64,000 bases of DNA, from NCBI GenBank assembly GCA_038231275.1, contig JBBRLQ010000027.1:1-64000 (forward strand), read 5' to 3'. A program made the position numbers and the translations under genes. Position 1 is the first letter of the stretch; the number at the start of each line of letters is the position of its first letter. Source of the DNA: Polyangiales bacterium. Lineage in GTDB: Bacteria > Myxococcota_A > Polyangia > Polyangiales > Polyangiaceae. Below the pieces are notes generated by a model. That model was not told the origin of the DNA. It did not search any database and worked only from the letters and a program-made list of their open reading frames with translations. This document shows, piece after piece, positions 1 to 5,141 of this stretch.

Positions 1-130
1 AGAGACGACCTACTCTCCCGACCCGAGGCCACAACCCTGAACTGACCCCGAGAGAAGACGTCGCTTCGCTCCGATCGCCATCCGGCGTGCTGGGTGATCG
101 CGATGCGCCGAATTACCCGATCGCCATCGG

Positions 131-169
131 CGGGACGCGCACGCAGGTTCGAATCCTGCCGCCTAGACC
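131..169 (+). pseudogene. Orphan tRNA 3' half (tRNA-Pro-like)
   Basis: Perfect T-arm GCAGG-TTCGAAT-CCTGC (143-159), then CGCCTAG-A-CC (G72/A73 as in tRNA-Pro), preceded by CGG-GA. No matching 5' acceptor strand within 1-130. Confidence 0.5.
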
Positions 170-186
170 GAGAGCACACGACCCGC

Positions 187-259
187 GCGGTGCTCGTGCT
201 CTGGTGAGCACACCTGCTCGACAAGCAGGACCAGGCAGGTTCGATCCCTGCGCGCCGCA
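187..259 (+). tRNA. tRNA-Val(GAC), atypical (C33)
   Basis: Acceptor GCGGTGC/GCGCCGC-A, D-stem GTGC/GCAC, anticodon arm CCTGC-TCGACAA-GCAGG, T-arm GCAGG-TTCGATC-CCTGC. No encoded CCA. Confidence 0.85.
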
Positions 260-274
260 CTGCATTTTCGATAC

Positions 275-350
275 GCCGATGTAGCCCAACTGGCAGAGGC
301 CGCAGTTTCAGAAACTGTGTGGAGTGAGGGTTCGAATCCCTTCGTCGGTA
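275..350 (+). tRNA. tRNA-Leu(CAG) with short variable region
   Basis: Acceptor GCCGATG/CGTCGGT-A, anticodon arm GCAGT-TTCAGAA-ACTGT, 7-nt variable region, T-arm GAGGG-TTCGAAT-CCCTT. Confidence 0.85.
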
Positions 351-384
351 CCGCGCTCACGAGCGCGACACGTCACGCCTCCCT

Positions 385-468
385 GCCACTGTGGTGGAAC
401 GGCATACACGACAGGCTGAGAACCTGTGCTCCATCAGGAGTGTGAGGGTTCGAGTCCCTCCGGTGGCA
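385..468 (+). tRNA. tRNA-Leu(GAG)
   Basis: Acceptor GCCACTG/CGGTGGC-A, anticodon arm ACAGG-CTGAGAA-CCTGT, long variable arm GCTCC-ATCA-GGAGT, T-arm GAGGG-TTCGAGT-CCCTC. Confidence 0.93.
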
Positions 469-518
469 CTGATTTTTTTCGAAAGGAGCTTTCAACCAAC
501 AACCCAGTGAGATCCGTC

Positions 519-1025
519 ATGCGAACCCTGCTGCTCATGCCGTGGATGACCCCCCACAAAATCGTCTCTTGGCAACGCGCTGTCGTGCTCGTCGTCCTCG
601 GCAAGGCCGAGATCCTCGAGGAGTATGACGTGGCGCTCGGCCCCGTCGTCGACTTCAAGACGCCGTCGGTCGTGCGCCTCACCAAGGGGCACCCGATGCA
701 GAAGCGCGCGGTTCGCTTCTCGCGCCTCAACGTCTTCACCCGCGACGGCTTTCGCTGCCAGTACTGCGGCGTGAAGAAGGAGATGCGTGAGCTCAACTAC
801 GACCACGTGCTGCCGCGCGTTCGCGGTGGAAAGACCGAGTGGGAGAACATCGCCACCTCCTGCTACGGCTGCAACGATCGAAAGGGGAGCCGCACCCCAG
901 AGGAGGCCGGAATGAAGCTTCTCCGGAAGCCCTTCAAGCCGAAGTCCCTCCCGCTCACGCCTGCGTTTCACGTCGACGCGTCCGCGATCCCTCCCGCCTG
1001 GCATCCGTTCTGCCAGGTGGGGTGA
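519..1025 (+). CDS. HNH endonuclease (McrA/HNH_5-like) with PLMP-like N-terminus, 168 aa
   Basis: Motif RDGFRCQYCG...DHVLPRVRGG...N...SCYGCNDRKG. Start moved to ATG 519 (GTG 507 possible) because the track start overlaps tRNA-Leu. Confidence 0.9.
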   Translation: MRTLLLMPWMTPHKIVSWQRAVVLVVLGKAEILEEYDVALGPVVDFKTPSVVRLTKGHPMQKRAVRFSRLNVFTRDGFRCQYCGVKKEMRELNYDHVLPRVRGGKTEWENIATSCYGCNDRKGSRTPEEAGMKLLRKPFKPKSLPLTPAFHVDASAIPPAWHPFCQVG

Positions 1026-1073
1026 GCCGTCCGGACGCGCGCGTGCGCGAGCGTGATTCCCCACGCGGCCTCC

Positions 1074-1105
1074 GCCGTCCTGGCCCGAGACGCTAAACCG
1101 GGCCG
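1074..1105 (+). ncRNA. Putative H-type pseudoknot element downstream of the HNH gene
   Basis: CGTC(1076-79)/GACG(1089-92) and GGCCCG(1082-87)/CGGGCC(1099-1104) interleave, with an A-rich loop CTAAAC. Confidence 0.45.
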
Positions 1106-1131
1106 CTTACTTTTTCGTTTCAGTAGATTCG

Positions 1132-1176
1132 TTCGAACGAAACATGAGCCGAGGCTCGACTCACGTTTCGTTTGAA
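1132..1176. repeat. 17-bp imperfect inverted repeat with 11-nt spacer
   Basis: TTCGAACGAAACATGAG ... CTCACGTTTCGTTTGAA (2 mismatches, one a G-U pair), in AT-rich sequence. Confidence 0.75.
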
Positions 1177-1188
1177 TAGATCGCTTTT

Positions 1189-1275
1189 GGAAGACGAACT
1201 GGCCGAGCGGCCGGGCCTGTCTCGAAAACAGTGCGTGCCTCCGGGCATGGGGATCAAGACCTCCGGCTTCCGCCA
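1189..1275 (+). tRNA. tRNA-Ser(CGA), 8/4 fold, CCA encoded
   Basis: 8-bp acceptor GGAAGACG/CGGCTTCC (1 mismatch), G73, 6-bp D-stem CTGGCC/GGCCGG, loop CT-CGA-AA, V-arm GTGCC-TCCG-GGCAT, 4-bp T-stem with aberrant loop ATCAAGA. Confidence 0.8.
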
Positions 1276-1279
1276 ACCA

Positions 1280-1363
1280 GGAAACCGAGCCACGCGCGGG
1301 CGTGGGCCTGGCCGCTACCCAGCGCGTGCCTTCGGGCATGAAGTTCGACTCTTCCGGTTTCCG
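1280..1363 (+). tRNA. tRNA-Ser(GCT), 8/4 fold, C33
   Basis: 8-bp acceptor GGAAACCG/CGGTTTCC, G73, 6-bp D-stem CCACGC/GCGTGG, loop CC-GCT-AC, V-arm GTGCC-TTCG-GGCAT, T-arm GAAG-TTCGACT-CTTC. Confidence 0.82.
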
Positions 1364-1407
1364 CTCTTCTTCCGCTCTCCGTCGTTGGTGCCGAGTTTTC
1401 TCCTCCT

Positions 1408-1489
1408 GGGTCGGAGGCAGATACGGTTGGCTGCGCGTGTCCGTAAAACACGTCCTTTCCCGGTGGGGGTTCGAATCCCTCCCGACCCA
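1408..1489 (+). tRNA. tRNA-Tyr(GTA), atypical (A8, C33)
   Basis: Acceptor GGGTCGG/CCGACCC-A, D-stem GCAG/CTGC, anticodon arm CGTGT-CCGTAAA-ACACG, T-arm GGGGG-TTCGAAT-CCCTC. Confidence 0.85.
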
Positions 1490-1498
1490 CAGAGAACG

Positions 1499-2884
1499 TC
1501 ATTCACGGGCGGCGGGTGACGCGCGCTTCTCGACGCGCTCGATCTTGCCCCTCGTCAGGAAAATAAACCTGGCCACGAGGACGAACGCGACGATGACGAG
1601 GCCGAGCGTCAATCCCCACCACAGCCCCGGCGCGCCGAGACCAACGCCGAAAGCGAGCCAGAGCGCGATGGGTAGGCCGATCACCCAGTAGGCCACGAGG
1701 TTCGACAGGAACGCGAACCGCACGTCGCCCGCGCCGCGTAGGGCGCCGGACGCGACGCCTTGCACACCGTCGAAGAGCTGAAAAACAGCGGCGATCATGA
1801 CGAGCTTGGCGCCGAGGGCGACGACGCGATCGTCCGGCGTGAAGAGGCCGACCAAGCCGGCCGGGATGAGCGCGAAGACGACGGCGCCGATCGTCTGCAG
1901 ACCGCCACCGAGCGCGATGCCAAGGAGGCCCGTGCGGCGCGGAGAGACGCCCTCGCCGACGGCGTGCCCCACGCGGACGGACGTAGCGGCGCTGACGCCG
2001 AGCGACGCCATGTACGTGAAGCTCGCGAGGCCGATGGCCACTTGGTGAGCGGACGCCGGAACCTCACCGAGCCGGCCCGACACCAGCGCGACGAGCGAAA
2101 AGATGCCGAGCTCCGCGAAGAGCTGGAGGCCGACCGGCAGGCCTACCCGGAGCGTCGTGCTCACCGGGACATGCTCGCTCGCTGCGCCGGCGTTGCGTGC
2201 GCGCGCGGCGCCGAGCGCGATGGCGACGAGCACGATCTCGGCGAGGGACGTGGCGAGGCCCGCGCCGAACGCGCCGAGCGCCGGAAGACCGACCGCAGGA
2301 AGACCGAGCGCCACGAGGACCCCATCGCCGCGCACGAGCAGGTTACAGACGACCCAATTCATCAGGTTGGCGACGAGCGCCGCCACCAGCGCCGGGCGCG
2401 CGCTTCCTCGTGCCTGCAAGTACGTGCGCGCCGCGATGTACGCGCCGTAGAGGCCGAGCCCCGGGAGCTGCCCCGTCAAATACCAGCGCGCGCGGATCGT
2501 GATCTCGTGCGAGACGCCCATCGGCTCGAGCAGGAACGTGATGCCCATTCCCAGGAGGGCGATCGGGATCCACGTGAGTGCGATCGCCTTCAGCGTCGCC
2601 TTGAGGGCGCCCCACGCGCGACCGGTTTCTCCTGCGCCGAGGGCCTGCGATGCGAGCGGCTCGAGGCCCATCCCGATTCCCATCGAGATCGACGCGACGC
2701 CGAAGCCGATCGAGCGCCCGATCGTCGCGCCGGCGAGCTCCGTCACCGAGACGCGGCCGAGAACCGCCGTGTCGACGAGGCCCATCGATACGAGCAGCAT
2801 CTGCGCAGACGTGACGGGCCACGCGAGGCGCGCGAGCGTGGCGAGCTCGCTGAGAGCGGTCCCTCGGGGGGAGTCAAGAGGCAC
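1499..2884 (-). CDS. MATE family efflux transporter (NorM-like)
   Basis: LAWPV...MGLVDTAVLGR, QLFDGVQGVASGALRGAGD, about 12 hydrophobic segments. Confidence 0.92.
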   Translation of the reverse strand: MPLDSPRGTALSELATLARLAWPVTSAQMLLVSMGLVDTAVLGRVSVTELAGATIGRSIGFGVASISMGIGMGLEPLASQALGAGETGRAWGALKATLKAIALTWIPIALLGMGITFLLEPMGVSHEITIRARWYLTGQLPGLGLYGAYIAARTYLQARGSARPALVAALVANLMNWVVCNLLVRGDGVLVALGLPAVGLPALGAFGAGLATSLAEIVLVAIALGAARARNAGAASEHVPVSTTLRVGLPVGLQLFAELGIFSLVALVSGRLGEVPASAHQVAIGLASFTYMASLGVSAATSVRVGHAVGEGVSPRRTGLLGIALGGGLQTIGAVVFALIPAGLVGLFTPDDRVVALGAKLVMIAAVFQLFDGVQGVASGALRGAGDVRFAFLSNLVAYWVIGLPIALWLAFGVGLGAPGLWWGLTLGLVIVAFVLVARFIFLTRGKIERVEKRASPAARE

Positions 2885-2931: not shown

Positions 2932-3864
2932 ATGGGCGGCTCGGAAATGGCCATCACGCACGCGGACGCGCTAGGACGACCGTTCGTCACGGCGAGCAAA
3001 GACGAGCTCGGCGAGACCGTCGTGAGCGGCCTGTTCGAGCACGACTATCTGCAGTCGCGCATGCCGGAAGGCAAAAACGTGGTCTTCGCGAGCGCGTTCG
3101 CCCTGGCGTGGGAAGAGGTGGCGCGCGTCGGCGGCAGCACGATCCTCATGCAATACGATCCGCCCGTGATGGTCGGCATGCAGGGCGAGAAGGACTACCG
3201 GAACGATCTGGAGGCGGCCGCGTGGTTCGCCGGCGGCAACTACGGCAGCGCCGGCGTCCTCACCCAGATCCGCGAAGGGCTCGGCGCCCACTGGAACGGC
3301 ATCGCCACGCCGATGCTCCTGCCCGACAACGTGGAGCCGGAGCACCTCTTCGCGTACGCGTACATGTTCAAGCACGTCGCGTACAACGAGCGCGAAGGGC
3401 ACGCCGCGCAGATCGCTCCTGGCGTGAGGCCCGAGGACTTCATCCTCGATCTTCCGCTGACGTCAGCCGACGATCGGCTCCTCATCGCGTCGATGCCGCG
3501 CGGGGAGACGCTCGCCGAGACCGTCGATCGCGCGCTCAGCCCGCGCCTGGCTTTCACGTCCACGGGAATGCCGGCGGCGTGGGCGCTCGAACGCTACCGC
3601 GTGCCGAAGATCCACTTCGACATCACGTGGAAGTTTCGCAACACGTCGGCGCGCTACGTCCTCAAGGTGGACGAGTTCGGCGCGACGGTCCTCAGCGAGG
3701 CGGCGCAGATGACGCTGCCGCTGCCGCCGATTATCGTGGCACGTCCGGGCGGGCGGGCGCAGGCGCCGATCCTGGTCGTCCTCGCGAAGCGAAACCGCAC
3801 GCGCCCCTACTTCGCCGCTTGGATCGAGAGCACCGAGCTGCTCATCCCCGATCCGGTCGGCTGA
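2932..3864 (+). CDS. Hypothetical protein with serpin-like C-terminal pattern
   Basis: Good codon bias. VPKIHFD...KVDEFGATVLSEAA...PILVVL...PYF. Start uncertain (2908/2932/2947). Confidence 0.6.
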   Translation: MGGSEMAITHADALGRPFVTASKDELGETVVSGLFEHDYLQSRMPEGKNVVFASAFALAWEEVARVGGSTILMQYDPPVMVGMQGEKDYRNDLEAAAWFAGGNYGSAGVLTQIREGLGAHWNGIATPMLLPDNVEPEHLFAYAYMFKHVAYNEREGHAAQIAPGVRPEDFILDLPLTSADDRLLIASMPRGETLAETVDRALSPRLAFTSTGMPAAWALERYRVPKIHFDITWKFRNTSARYVLKVDEFGATVLSEAAQMTLPLPPIIVARPGGRAQAPILVVLAKRNRTRPYFAAWIESTELLIPDPVG

Positions 3865-3925: not shown

Positions 3926-5141
3926 TGAGTAACAACCTCGGCCCGAAGACGCCGAGCTTCGAGCCTGCCATCGCCCGCACCATCTCGCGCTCGAAGAACG
4001 CGAGCTTCGTCATCGTGCCCATCCCGAGGTCGCGCACGAGGGCCAGCCAGTGCATGTCCGACTGGAAGAACGGCGTGAGCCAACGCGTCGCGAGCTGGTA
4101 GAAATCCAGGTGATCGGCGCGGCGCGCAGAGTACGTGGCGAGGGCGTCCATGACGCTGCTGGCGCCCTCGACGCACTCGGCGAGGGTCCACGCGTCGATG
4201 AGCGCGAGGTTGCACCCCTGCCCAAGCTGCGGGCTCATCGCGTGCGCGGCGTCGCCGAGGACCACGACGTTGTGGGTGTGCCAACGCGGCATCACGACGT
4301 CGTGGTAGACGGCCAACGTCACCTGCGACGCGTCCTCGATTTGCGCGAGGACCGGCGCCGCGTCGGGGCGGAGCGCGAGGATCTCCTCTTTCCAGACCTC
4401 GAGCCCCGCGTCGCGCCACGCGTCGACGGCGTCGCAGCGGAGAGACCAATAGAGGCTTACGTGCGGGACCGGATCCGCGTCGTCGGGGCCGAGGCCGGTC
4501 GGCAAGAGGCCGAGCATGCGGCGCGTCGACACCATGGTCTGTTCGAGGCGCCCCGTGAAGCGCCCCTCGGGATCGCGCGCGACGAACCAGAGGGCCCCCC
4601 AGGGATACGTCGCCACCGAGCGCTTCAGGTTTCGCTGCGCGCCGAGGTGAGAGCGCGCGCCGTCTGCGACGACGACGAGATCGTGCAGGCCGTGCGCCGC
4701 GCCGCGCTCGTCCACGACGACGACGCGATCCTGTGACGCAGGGCGCAGGCTCGCGGCGGCGAGACCCAAATGGAGGGCGATGCGCGGCTCACGCTTGACC
4801 GCGCCGAAGAGCGCCGCGAAGAGGACGCCGCGGTGGAGGCCCAGGCCGAACATCTCCGGATCTTCGCGGGCGTACGCGAGCTCCACGATTTTTCGGCCGC
4901 GATCGGTCGTGCAGACGAGCCCGTCGAGACGCGCCGCCTTCGCGACGATCGGCGCGAGCAGCTCCAATTCCGCGAGGACGGTCTGGCCCGTGGGCTGGAG
5001 GACGATCCCGGCGCCCACCGGTCCAGGCTCGGGGACGCGCTCGTACATCGACACGCGATGCCCCGCGCGCGCGAGGAAGAGCGCGGCGGCCGCACCCGCG
5101 GTTCCGCAGCCGATCACTCCGACGTCGAGCGGGCGATGCAC
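3918..5141 (-). CDS. FAD-dependent monooxygenase (UbiH-like family)
   Basis: VIGCGTAG, VVADGARS and VLGDAAHAMSPQLGQGCN motifs. Start set at GTG 5141. Confidence 0.9.
   Translation of the reverse strand: MHRPLDVGVIGCGTAGAAAALFLARAGHRVSMYERVPEPGPVGAGIVLQPTGQTVLAELELLAPIVAKAARLDGLVCTTDRGRKIVELAYAREDPEMFGLGLHRGVLFAALFGAVKREPRIALHLGLAAASLRPASQDRVVVVDERGAAHGLHDLVVVADGARSHLGAQRNLKRSVATYPWGALWFVARDPEGRFTGRLEQTMVSTRRMLGLLPTGLGPDDADPVPHVSLYWSLRCDAVDAWRDAGLEVWKEEILALRPDAAPVLAQIEDASQVTLAVYHDVVMPRWHTHNVVVLGDAAHAMSPQLGQGCNLALIDAWTLAECVEGASSVMDALATYSARRADHLDFYQLATRWLTPFFQSDMHWLALVRDLGMGTMTKLAFFEREMVRAMAGSKLGVFGPRLLLKA

What the first reader, a model, noticed from the sequence alone, without database searches (positions are those of the whole stretch)
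1189..1363. Two tandem serine tRNAs with an 8/4, tRNA-Sec-like cloverleaf
Seen: both fold with an 8-bp acceptor stem and 4-bp T-stem instead of 7/5. Both have a 6-bp D-stem closing a 4-nt loop, a GC-(4 bp)/(4 bp)-N-GC bulged anticodon stem, a near-identical V-arm (GTGCC-TYCG-GGCAT) and G73. The stems differ in sequence yet keep pairing, which is covariation between the two copies. Ser-CGA also has T-loop ATCAAGA instead of TTCRANY. Established: 6-bp D-stems typify tRNA-Sec, and 8/4 allo-tRNA and tRNA-Ser species have been described as rare forms. Inference: these are SerRS substrates with altered EF-Tu or nuclease recognition, or with a non-ribosomal role.
Basis: partly seen in the sequence, partly recalled or inferred. 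Interest (0 to 1): 0.8.

Follow-up and report, generated by a model that had tools for sequence, protein, structure and literature searches.

The report
Two 8/4-fold serine tRNA genes
These are two real serine tRNA genes with a rare but already published shape (8-pair acceptor stem, 4-pair T stem), sitting in a myxobacterial tRNA gene array that is related to the tRNA clusters of very large phages.

Summary
Each has an 8-bp acceptor stem, a 2-nt linker, a 6-bp D stem with a 4-nt loop, a bulged 6-bp anticodon stem, a 5-bp V arm, a 4-bp T stem and G73. A 7/5 fold would need a U·C pair. ARAGORN and Rfam miss both genes.

A covariance model found homologues in 13 of 60 related genomes. It also found them beside a conserved HNH gene in 26 of 80 Myxococcota loci and in 12 of 31 IMG/VR viral loci. 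Covariation is strong: 22 of 29 pairs show compensatory changes, and pair 8 is G-C or A-U in 25 of 25 sequences. Of 83 clean 8/4 hits in bacterial loci, 79 carry Ser anticodons.

The genes belong to a tRNA array of about 30 genes that is split over two contigs. The genome also has a full canonical 7/5 tRNA-Ser set.

This is the (8/4) tRNA-Ser class of Mukai et al. 2017, so it is a new member of a known kind. The most likely role is accessory, SerRS-charged, EF-Tu-compatible Ser tRNAs for UCG and AGY, the two commonest Ser codons here. Earlier work in this scan reached the same class on other DNA.

The parts
1189..1275 (+). tRNA-Ser(CGA), 8/4 fold. The anticodon is at 1223-1225, G73 at 1272, and an encoded CCA at 1273-1275. 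It has an A6.G78 mismatch and the T loop ATCAAGA.
   Evidence: Read from the sequence. The cloverleaf is the RNAfold MFE. Model R1 scores it 102.4 bits and R2 89.1 bits. ARAGORN and Rfam do not call it.
1280..1363 (+). tRNA-Ser(GCU), 8/4 fold. The anticodon is at 1314-1316 and G73 at 1363. There is no encoded CCA. All 29 pairs are standard and the T loop is TTCGACT.
   Evidence: R1 scores it 102.3 bits and R2 90.4 bits. ARAGORN and Rfam do not call it.
519..1025 (+). HNH endonuclease ORF (168 aa) inside the tRNA array, just upstream of the two Ser genes. The same order is kept in relatives and in viral contigs.
   Evidence: Pfam HNH_5 at 4.5e-15 and HNH at 2.2e-13. The order HNH then 8/4 Ser is seen in 26 of 80 genome loci and in 12 of 31 viral loci.
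1408..1490 (+). tRNA-Tyr(GUA) with an ordinary 7/5 fold. It is the last gene of the array.
   Evidence: ARAGORN. Rfam tRNA at 44.2 bits, with the alignment showing a 7-bp acceptor and a 5-bp T stem.
385..469 (+). tRNA-Leu(GAG), 7/5 fold with a long V arm. Array member.
   Evidence: ARAGORN. Rfam at 54.8 bits.
275..352 (+). tRNA-Leu(CAG) of only 78 nt, with no long V arm. Array member.
   Evidence: ARAGORN. Rfam at 46.1 bits, with a short variable region in the alignment.
187..260 (+). tRNA-Val(GAC). Array member.
   Evidence: ARAGORN. Rfam at 43.9 bits.
143..167 (+). The 3' part (T arm and 3' acceptor strand) of a tRNA-Pro(CGG). Its 5' part lies at the end of contig C12.
   Evidence: Read from the sequence. 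The assignment is by eye. The acceptor strands on the two contigs pair over 7 bp.
1..142 (.). One end of a multi-copy, IS-like repeat that interrupts the tRNA-Pro gene and causes the contig break.
   Evidence: It is inverted-repeat related to the C12 tail. Copies lie at the ends of C33, C37, C72 and C13 and inside C3 and C2. Word depth in run X1 is 80-115 here against about 9 further on.

Best explanation
The two genes encode functional accessory serine tRNAs of the published (8/4) tRNA-Ser type.

Inferred: they are transcribed with the rest of a tRNA array of about 30 genes. The array runs from contig C12:226768 to that contig's end, then window 1-1490.

Inferred from identity features: the genome's single SerRS charges them through the long V arm, G73 and the G1-C72/G2-C71/A3-U70 acceptor end.

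Inferred from geometry and from published tests on other 8/4 tRNAs: because 8+4 keeps the canonical 12-bp acceptor/T branch, EF-Tu carries them to the ribosome. There they read UCG (anticodon CGA) and AGC/AGU (anticodon GCU).

Shown: the array and its embedded HNH gene share ancestry with tRNA clusters of very large phages. The direction of transfer is not shown. The array duplicates the chromosome's canonical 7/5 tRNA-Ser set.
For: Structure:
- The 8/4 fold is kept by covariation in 25 homologues. 22 of 29 pairs are compensatory. The 8th acceptor pair is G-C in 18 and A-U in 7. The T stem is paired in 100% of cells.
- A model-free alignment gives the same fold.
- The alternative fifth T pair is impossible in 83 of 92 unique bacterial hits.

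Identity:
- 79 of the 83 clean 8/4 bacterial hits carry Ser anticodons: GCT 32, CGA 26, GGA 16, TGA 5. The other 4 are 2 tRNA-Sec and 2 Tyr-like.
- All 20 clean viral hits carry Ser anticodons.
- The discriminator is G in 60, U in 18 and A in 5.
- The first three acceptor pairs are invariant and match the four canonical tRNA-Ser genes of this genome.

Constraint:
- Against a same-genus genome, the two genes differ at 2 of 84 and 3 of 84 positions.
- The 3 differences in Ser-GCU fall on the linker, the bulge and the V loop.
- The spacers have diverged and carry a roughly 50-nt indel.

Use:
- UCG makes up 45% and AGC 34% of Ser codons in 1395 long ORFs.
- There is one SerRS gene.

Published: 8/4 and 9/3 tRNAs insert Ser efficiently in E. 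coli, and (8/4) tRNA-Ser occurs in phage tRNA clusters (PMC5389517; abstract and section 13).
Against: - There is no expression or charging evidence. The one RNA run with any overlap covers only the HNH ORF, at 88-95% likeness.
- Gene 1 has an A.G mismatch in the acceptor stem and the T loop ATCAAGA, with A at position 54. The same loop recurs in the same-genus genome, in one viral contig and in phage DSS3_MAL1.
- A neighbouring tRNA-Pro of the same array is split by an IS-like repeat, so not every array gene is kept intact.
- The array is redundant with the canonical set.
- No 8/4 gene was found in 14 Sorangium loci or in 47 of 60 relatives.
- No sigma-70-like promoter was found in window 1-1800. 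This scan says little for this phylum.
Confidence: 0.78

Rival explanations
1. The genes are decaying passengers. The array is a relic of a phage-derived or otherwise mobile tRNA cluster, and the two genes are no longer used, or barely used, in this host.
For: - An IS-like repeat splits the tRNA-Pro(CGG) of the same array.
- Gene 1 has an A.G mismatch that the same-genus copy lacks.
- A tRNA-Pro(GGG) that follows the HNH gene in many relatives is missing here.
- The genome has a full canonical Ser set.
- The distribution is patchy: 13 of 60 relatives.
Against: - Between the two same-genus genomes the tRNA bodies are 96-98% identical, while the spacers diverged with indels.
- Covariation is strong, and Ser anticodons are strictly kept across 41 bacterial loci.
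- Gene 2 has 29 of 29 standard pairs.
Confidence: 0.1
2. The genes are translating tRNAs whose 8/4 shape exists to escape something that acts on ordinary 7/5 tRNA-Ser. This could be a tRNA-cleaving defence or toxin nuclease, or a modification enzyme. The array would then serve as an attack-proof spare set, first for the phage and then for the host.
For: - The shape is tied to phage-type arrays. 12 of 31 viral loci with the HNH homologue have model hits.
- The cultured phage DSS3_MAL1 has four such genes.
- Only Ser tRNAs, not the Leu or Tyr tRNAs of this array, have the shape.
- Mukai et al. note allo-tRNA genes near toxin-antitoxin systems (section 16).
Against: - No nuclease or defence gene was identified next to this array. 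The flanks hold transport, signalling and fatty-acid genes.
- The anticodon loops, the usual target of such nucleases, are ordinary.
Confidence: 0.1
3. There is cross-talk with selenocysteine synthesis. The 6-bp D stem with a 4-nt loop and the 8-bp acceptor stem let SelA and/or SelB act on these Ser-tRNAs.
For: - The genome has selA, selB and tRNA-Sec clustered on C13.
- A review states that the long D stem is what SelA reads on tRNA-Sec and that the 8-bp acceptor stem is the SelB determinant (PMC7609411, passages seen).
- tRNA-Sec genes score about 43 bits with the 8/4 Ser model.
Against: - 4 of 11 related genomes with strong 8/4 hits have no SelA match: G026, G038, G040 and G049, which are 85-97% complete.
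- The branch is 12 bp, not the 13 bp of tRNA-Sec.
- The anticodons are sense Ser codons used thousands of times, so conversion to Sec would be harmful.
Confidence: 0.02

Closest known systems
[quoted passage not shown]
   Same: - 8-bp acceptor stem plus 4-bp T stem.
- Long D stem with a tetraloop.
- Lengthened anticodon stem.
- Long V arm.
- G73 or U73.
- Ser anticodons.
- Location in tRNA gene clusters of phages and some bacteria.
- The paper's supplementary table lists soil and aquatic metagenome entries of the same design.
   Different: Here the genes sit in a chromosomal array of a Polyangiaceae-like myxobacterium, next to a conserved HNH gene. The words Myxococc, Polyangi, Sorangi, Sandaracin and Chondromyces do not occur in the paper's supplement, and 'myxo' does not occur in its main text. 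Gene 1 has A at T-loop position 54.
Bacterial tRNA-Sec (selC product; Rfam RF01852)
   Same: - 8-bp acceptor stem.
- 6-bp D stem with a 4-nt loop.
- Long V arm and G73.
- 5' end GGAAG, as in this genome's own tRNA-Sec on C13.
   Different: - tRNA-Sec has a 5-bp T stem, giving 13 bp in all, and anticodon UCA.
- The two genes here have 12 bp and Ser anticodons.
- RF01852 does not match them even at E up to 10.
Canonical bacterial class II tRNA-Ser (7/5)
   Same: - Long V arm and G73.
- G1-C72, G2-C71 and A3-U70.
- The same anticodons.
- The genome has four such genes (C1 three times, C32).
   Different: - The canonical form has a 7-bp acceptor stem, a 5-bp T stem, a short D stem with a large D loop and a 5-bp anticodon stem.
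- The Rfam tRNA model and ARAGORN find the canonical genes but not the two here.
- Model R2 does not match the canonical genes at E up to 1.
tRNA array units of prokaryotes (Tran et al., Genome Biol Evol 2016, PMC4758250) and tRNA clusters of large phages
   Same: ARAGORN tRNA genes in 2.4 kb on C12. This exceeds the definition in that paper's abstract of at least 20 genes at 2 or more per kb. Array members are redundant with a housekeeping set and some are irregular.
   Different: That survey's main text does not contain Sorangium, Myxococc, Deltaproteobacteria or HNH. Here the array carries an HNH gene and 8/4 Ser genes, and it shares both with IMG/VR contigs of 83-435 kb.

Membership tests
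(8/4) tRNA-Ser / (8/4) allo-tRNA (Mukai et al. 2017) | 12-bp acceptor/T branch split as an 8-bp acceptor stem and a 4-bp T stem | tested here: met
   Both genes meet this. The 8th pair covaries, G-C 18 and A-U 7, in 25 of 25 sequences and 28 of 28. A fifth T pair would be U.C.
(8/4) tRNA-Ser / (8/4) allo-tRNA (Mukai et al. 2017) | tRNA-Sec-like D arm: long stem closed by a tetraloop | tested here: met
   Both genes have a 6-bp stem and a 4-nt loop. All 6 pairs show compensatory change in the family.
(8/4) tRNA-Ser / (8/4) allo-tRNA (Mukai et al. 2017) | Long V arm and a lengthened anticodon stem | tested here: met
   The V stem is 5 bp with a tetraloop. The anticodon stem is 6 bp with one bulged nucleotide. 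Both helices covary.
(8/4) tRNA-Ser / (8/4) allo-tRNA (Mukai et al. 2017) | Discriminator G73 (or U73) and, for the tRNA-Ser subgroup, a serine anticodon | tested here: met
   Both genes have G73. The anticodons are CGA and GCU. In the family, 79 of 83 clean bacterial hits have Ser anticodons.
(8/4) tRNA-Ser / (8/4) allo-tRNA (Mukai et al. 2017) | Serylation by SerRS and activity in translation | not testable with these tools
   This is only inferred. The paper's tests used other 8/4 and 9/3 tRNAs in E. coli.
Bacterial tRNA-Sec | 13-bp branch (8/5) and anticodon UCA | tested here: not met
   The T stem is 4 bp and the anticodons are CGA and GCU. RF01852 gives no match at E up to 10. The genome's true tRNA-Sec is on C13.
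Canonical class II tRNA-Ser (7/5) | 7-bp acceptor stem, 5-bp T stem, and a short D stem with a large loop | tested here: not met
   The fifth T pair would be U.C in both genes. Opening pair 8 costs 2.4 kcal/mol. The Rfam tRNA model does not match.
tRNA array unit (Tran et al. 2016) | At least 20 tRNA genes at 2 or more per kb | tested here: met
   ARAGORN genes in C12:226768-229169. Rfam adds 3 more. There are 7 more in window 1-1490, counting the split Pro gene and the two Ser genes.

The most novel reading that the evidence does not exclude
The 8/4 shape may be kept in phage-type tRNA arrays, and only for serine, because it hides these tRNAs from a factor that recognises ordinary 7/5 tRNA-Ser. 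That factor could be a tRNA-cleaving defence or toxin nuclease, or a phage-made shut-off enzyme. The array would then be an attack-proof spare decoding set that Polyangiales have taken over from, or share with, their giant phages.
Probability: 0.1. Interest if true: 0.7.

Novelty: new member of a known kind. Interest (0 to 1): 0.3.

Why it matters
The practical value is in annotation.
- ARAGORN missed both window genes.
- ARAGORN also missed 16 of the 23 homologues in related loci.
- Rfam missed both window genes.
- Four such genes lie unannotated in a GenBank phage record.
- tRNA counts of myxobacteria and large phages are therefore too low.

The biological addition is modest. A defined family of 8/4 Ser tRNAs, always beside the same HNH gene, links the chromosomal tRNA arrays of Polyangiales to the tRNA/tmRNA clusters of 83-435 kb viral contigs. 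A cultivable carrier would allow a test of whether array tRNAs are used by the host. The fold itself and its serine identity were published in 2017.

Tried and rejected
- **7/5 fold.** Rejected. It needs U.C as the fifth T pair in both genes. That pair is possible in only 8 of 92 unique bacterial hits, most of them low-scoring canonical Ser tRNAs.
- **tRNA-Sec.** Rejected on anticodon, T-stem length and the lack of an RF01852 match.
- **Single-sequence folding statistics.** The z-scores of -0.95 to -1.7 are not informative. In one search gene 2 was folded from 1281, one base short. It was redone with the right ends.
- **Prophage context.** Not found. The flanks encode MatE, an FAD monooxygenase, a phosphoesterase, fatty-acid oxidation genes, PrsW, a beta-CASP nuclease, Amt, arginase and histidine kinases.
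- **Expression.** One search of sequencing runs and one laying of reads were done. The RNA run X20 covers only 518-1035, the HNH ORF, at 88-95% likeness. Nothing covers the tRNAs. All data were contigs, so no conclusion follows.
- **Promoter and terminator scan.** It found 0 promoter-like sites and 1 terminator-like site on the minus strand, against 1.4 expected.
- **Viral nature of the IMG/VR records.** My own test with Terminase_6N found no match over the cut-off in any of 5 records. One match was below the cut-off. The viral label therefore rests on IMG/VR classes: 3 records with direct terminal repeats and 100% CheckV completeness, 1 linear and 1 provirus.
- **Sorangium.** 14 loci with the HNH gene and an array gave no 8/4 hit within 3.5 kb on either side.
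- **Myxococcus phage Mx1.** It has the HNH homologue between two Leu tRNAs but no 8/4 hit within 6 kb on either side.
- **Obligate link to SelA.** Rejected: 4 of 11 carriers have no SelA match.
- **Phylum-wide sample.** 6 of 151 genomes matched at E up to 1e-5, but only 30 candidates per genome were scored. The hits at about 43 bits are either tRNA-Sec (L142, L143; TCA anticodons) or canonical 7/5 Ser tRNAs (L144, L145). This is a weak lower bound.

Full report
**1. What is in the window**

The stretch 1189-1363 holds two head-to-tail units of 84 nt each, counted to the discriminator.

Gene 1 is 1189-1272, followed by an encoded CCA at 1273-1275. Gene 2 is 1280-1363 and has no CCA.
- an 8-bp acceptor stem;
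- a 2-nt linker;
- a 6-bp D stem closing a 4-nt loop;
- a 6-bp anticodon stem with one bulged base on the 3' side;
- a 7-nt anticodon loop with CGA (gene 1) or GCU (gene 2) in the anticodon position;
- a 5-bp V stem with a tetraloop;
- no spacer before a 4-bp T stem;
- a 7-nt T loop;
- G as discriminator.

Gene 1 has one A.G mismatch at the sixth acceptor pair and the T loop ATCAAGA.

ARAGORN calls four other tRNAs in the window but nothing here. Rfam gives no tRNA or tRNA-Sec match here, either at gathering score or at E up to 10 on a 2.2-kb slice.

**2. Is the 8/4 fold real?**

Between the two copies, 57 of 58 pair cells are standard pairs and 6 of 29 pairs differ on both sides. 5 of 500 shuffles reached this.

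For gene 1 the 8/4 cloverleaf is the RNAfold minimum. For gene 2 it lies 1.2 kcal/mol above the minimum. Opening the eighth pair costs 2.4 kcal/mol in both. Single-sequence z-scores are weak, so I looked for homologues.

A covariance model of the two genes (R1) matched only these two genes strongly in the window's own 9.28-Mb genome. It matched 13 of 60 related genomes of the same order at E up to 0.01. In 11 of those the score was 50 bits or more, and the hits were often tandem pairs.

For the 25 sequences with E up to 1e-10:
- 97.9% of 724 cells are paired;
- 22 of 29 pairs show compensatory change;
- 0 of 500 shuffles reach this;
- sliding the 3' partners drops pairing to 39.6-49.7%.

The decisive eighth acceptor pair is G-C in 18 and A-U in 7, with none unpaired. 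The 4-bp T stem is paired in every cell.

That alignment was fitted to the model. I therefore repeated the test with a plain MAFFT alignment of 28 sequences (2 from the window, 21 bacterial, 5 viral) and RNAalifold. The same 8/4 cloverleaf came back, with pair 8 as G-C 18 and A-U 10.

A 7/5 reading needs the last V-arm base to pair with the partner of position 8. This is U.C in both window genes and is impossible in 83 of 92 unique bacterial hits.

**3. What the family is**

Of the 83 clean 8/4 bacterial hits, 79 carry serine anticodons: GCT 32, CGA 26, GGA 16, TGA 5. Two are tRNA-Sec genes and two are Tyr-like genes in one locus. All 20 clean viral hits carry serine anticodons, five of each of the four. 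Discriminators are G 60, U 18 and A 5.

The first three acceptor pairs (G-C, G-C, A-U) are invariant or nearly so. They are the same as in the four canonical 7/5 tRNA-Ser genes of this genome. That these pairs belong to the SerRS identity set is my recollection, not a tool result.

The genome has one SerRS gene. UCG and AGC, the codons read by the two genes, make up 45% and 34% of serine codons in 1395 long high-GC3 ORFs.

Against a same-genus genome the two genes differ at 2 and 3 of 84 positions. In the GCU gene all three differences fall on unpaired positions. The spacers meanwhile have diverged and carry a roughly 50-nt indel. This is the pattern of genes under structural constraint.

**4. 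Context**

The window starts at the beginning of contig C27. Contig C12 ends with 20 ARAGORN-called tRNA genes in 2.4 kb. Rfam finds three more there that ARAGORN missed.

The last tRNA on C12, a Pro(CGG) by my reading, breaks off in its T arm. Its T arm and 3' acceptor strand reappear at window 143-167. Between the two parts lie the ends of a multi-copy IS-like repeat. This repeat also sits at several other contig ends and has roughly tenfold depth in the likely source run.

So the two Ser genes belong to one array of about 30 genes. In the window it ends as Val, Leu, Leu, an HNH endonuclease ORF (519-1025; Pfam HNH_5), Ser, Ser, Tyr. The genes on both sides of the array are ordinary chromosomal genes. 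The genome has a full set of canonical tRNA-Ser genes elsewhere.

**5. Relatives of the array**

Close homologues of the HNH protein were sought in one genome per species. They lie in records titled Polyangiaceae, Polyangiales, Sorangium, Sandaracinaceae, Myxococcales and similar, almost always inside tRNA arrays.

- In 26 of 80 such loci, R1 finds one to six 8/4 genes just downstream of the HNH gene on the same strand.
- In 14 Sorangium loci it finds none.
- One same-family genome's hits coincide with a contig titled uncultured Polyangiaceae bacterium. The window's organism is therefore probably a Polyangiaceae member. This is an inference.

The same HNH protein, at 46-61% identity, occurs in IMG/VR contigs of 83-435 kb. 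There it lies within tRNA clusters that in several cases also hold a tmRNA.

- 12 of 31 viral loci have 8/4 hits of up to 81 bits.
- IMG/VR classes three of five checked records as having direct terminal repeats and 100% completeness.
- My own terminase search found nothing over the cut-off.

The cultured phage DSS3_MAL1 (MN602268) has four 8/4 Ser genes of 67-83 bits in gaps of its annotated tRNA cluster.

**6. Comparison with what is known**

Mukai et al. 2017 (PMC5389517) describe exactly this design. I read the abstract, sections 13 and 16, and the supplementary table. They report:
- (8/4) tRNA-Ser with a tRNA-Sec-like D arm, a long V arm, longer anticodon and acceptor stems, and G73 or U73;
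- occurrence in bacteriophages, proteobacteria and rumen Clostridia, including phage tRNA clusters;
- that 8/4 and 9/3 tRNAs insert serine efficiently in E. coli.

The window genes meet every structural criterion (see the membership table), so they are members of that class. They are not tRNA-Sec, because they have 12 bp rather than 13 and sense anticodons. They are not canonical tRNA-Ser either.

I did not find the myxobacterial setting in print. The supplement of Mukai et al. has no Myxococc, Polyangi, Sorangi, Sandaracin or Chondromyces. Its main text has no 'myxo', and neither does the 2020 review. The tRNA-array survey has no Sorangium, Myxococc, Deltaproteobacteria or HNH in its main text. 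These searches cover only the held library and these papers.

Earlier reports of this scan describe the same class on other DNA, including a myxobacterial array. I reached my reading before seeing them.

**7. Rival readings**

- A relic reading gains from the IS-split Pro gene, the A.G mismatch and the patchy distribution. It is opposed by the conservation pattern.
- A link to selenocysteine synthesis was considered because selA, selB and tRNA-Sec are present and the D arm resembles the SelA determinant (review passages). However, 4 of 11 carrier genomes have no SelA match.
- A nuclease-escape reading remains open and untested.

**8. Verdict**

It is unsupported on altered EF-Tu use and on a non-ribosomal role.

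This is a new member of a known kind. Its interest is moderate to low, and it lies mainly in annotation and in the link between Polyangiales arrays and giant-phage tRNA clusters.

Noticed in passing
window 1-167 and G000:C12:229191-229388: A tRNA-Pro(CGG) of the array appears to be split in its T arm by a multi-copy IS-like repeat with inverted ends. A short duplicated stretch (about GCAGGT) lies at the two junctions. The repeat also ends contigs C33, C37, C72 and C13, and it explains the contig break.
   Followed up: partly
window 275-352: tRNA-Leu(CAG) is only 78 nt and has no long variable arm. ARAGORN also calls short Leu tRNAs of 73-78 nt in several related arrays (for example L010, L014 and L024).
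   Followed up: no
window 519-1025: An HNH endonuclease gene is conserved inside the tRNA arrays of Polyangiales, Sorangium and Sandaracinaceae. It is also found in IMG/VR contigs of 83-435 kb and, at about 43% identity, in Myxococcus phage Mx1 between two Leu tRNAs. Soil metatranscriptome contigs match it at 88-95% likeness.
   Followed up: partly
L063:5082-5160 and L063:5246-5326: Two tRNA-Tyr(GUA)-like genes in a Polyangiaceae MAG array also appear to have an 8-bp acceptor and a 4-bp T stem, with A73. An earlier report of this scan notes 8/4 Tyr tRNAs in a Caulobacter phage.
   Followed up: no
G000:C12:227554-227703: This gap in the array has no called tRNA. It holds a long-range helix of about 12 bp, a T-arm-like hairpin and a 7-nt loop with CAA in the anticodon position. 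It could be an aberrant tRNA-like RNA.
   Followed up: no
G000:C12:226960-227034: A degenerate partial copy of the neighbouring tRNA-Lys gene, with the same T arm and 3' acceptor strand. It suggests local duplication and decay inside the array.
   Followed up: no
L034:3117-3231 and L009:1212-1363: Two 8/4 Ser-type genes carry large insertions, one of them 35 nt in the T loop. The insertions could be introns or inserted elements.
   Followed up: no
L150 (MN602268.1) 2898-2986, 2994-3078, 3706-3789, 4802-4886: Four 8/4 Ser tRNA genes lie unannotated in the GenBank record of phage DSS3_MAL1, in gaps of its annotated tRNA cluster.
   Followed up: yes
L110, L111, L112, L116 (IMG/VR loci): The viral tRNA clusters carry a tmRNA gene a few hundred bases upstream of the HNH homologue. 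Their tag peptides begin ANDNA or ANDNG, like the host genome's own tmRNA tag (ANDNAIALAA).
   Followed up: no
G000:C13:5400-10057: selB, selA and tRNA-Sec lie clustered, so the organism probably uses selenocysteine.
   Followed up: partly
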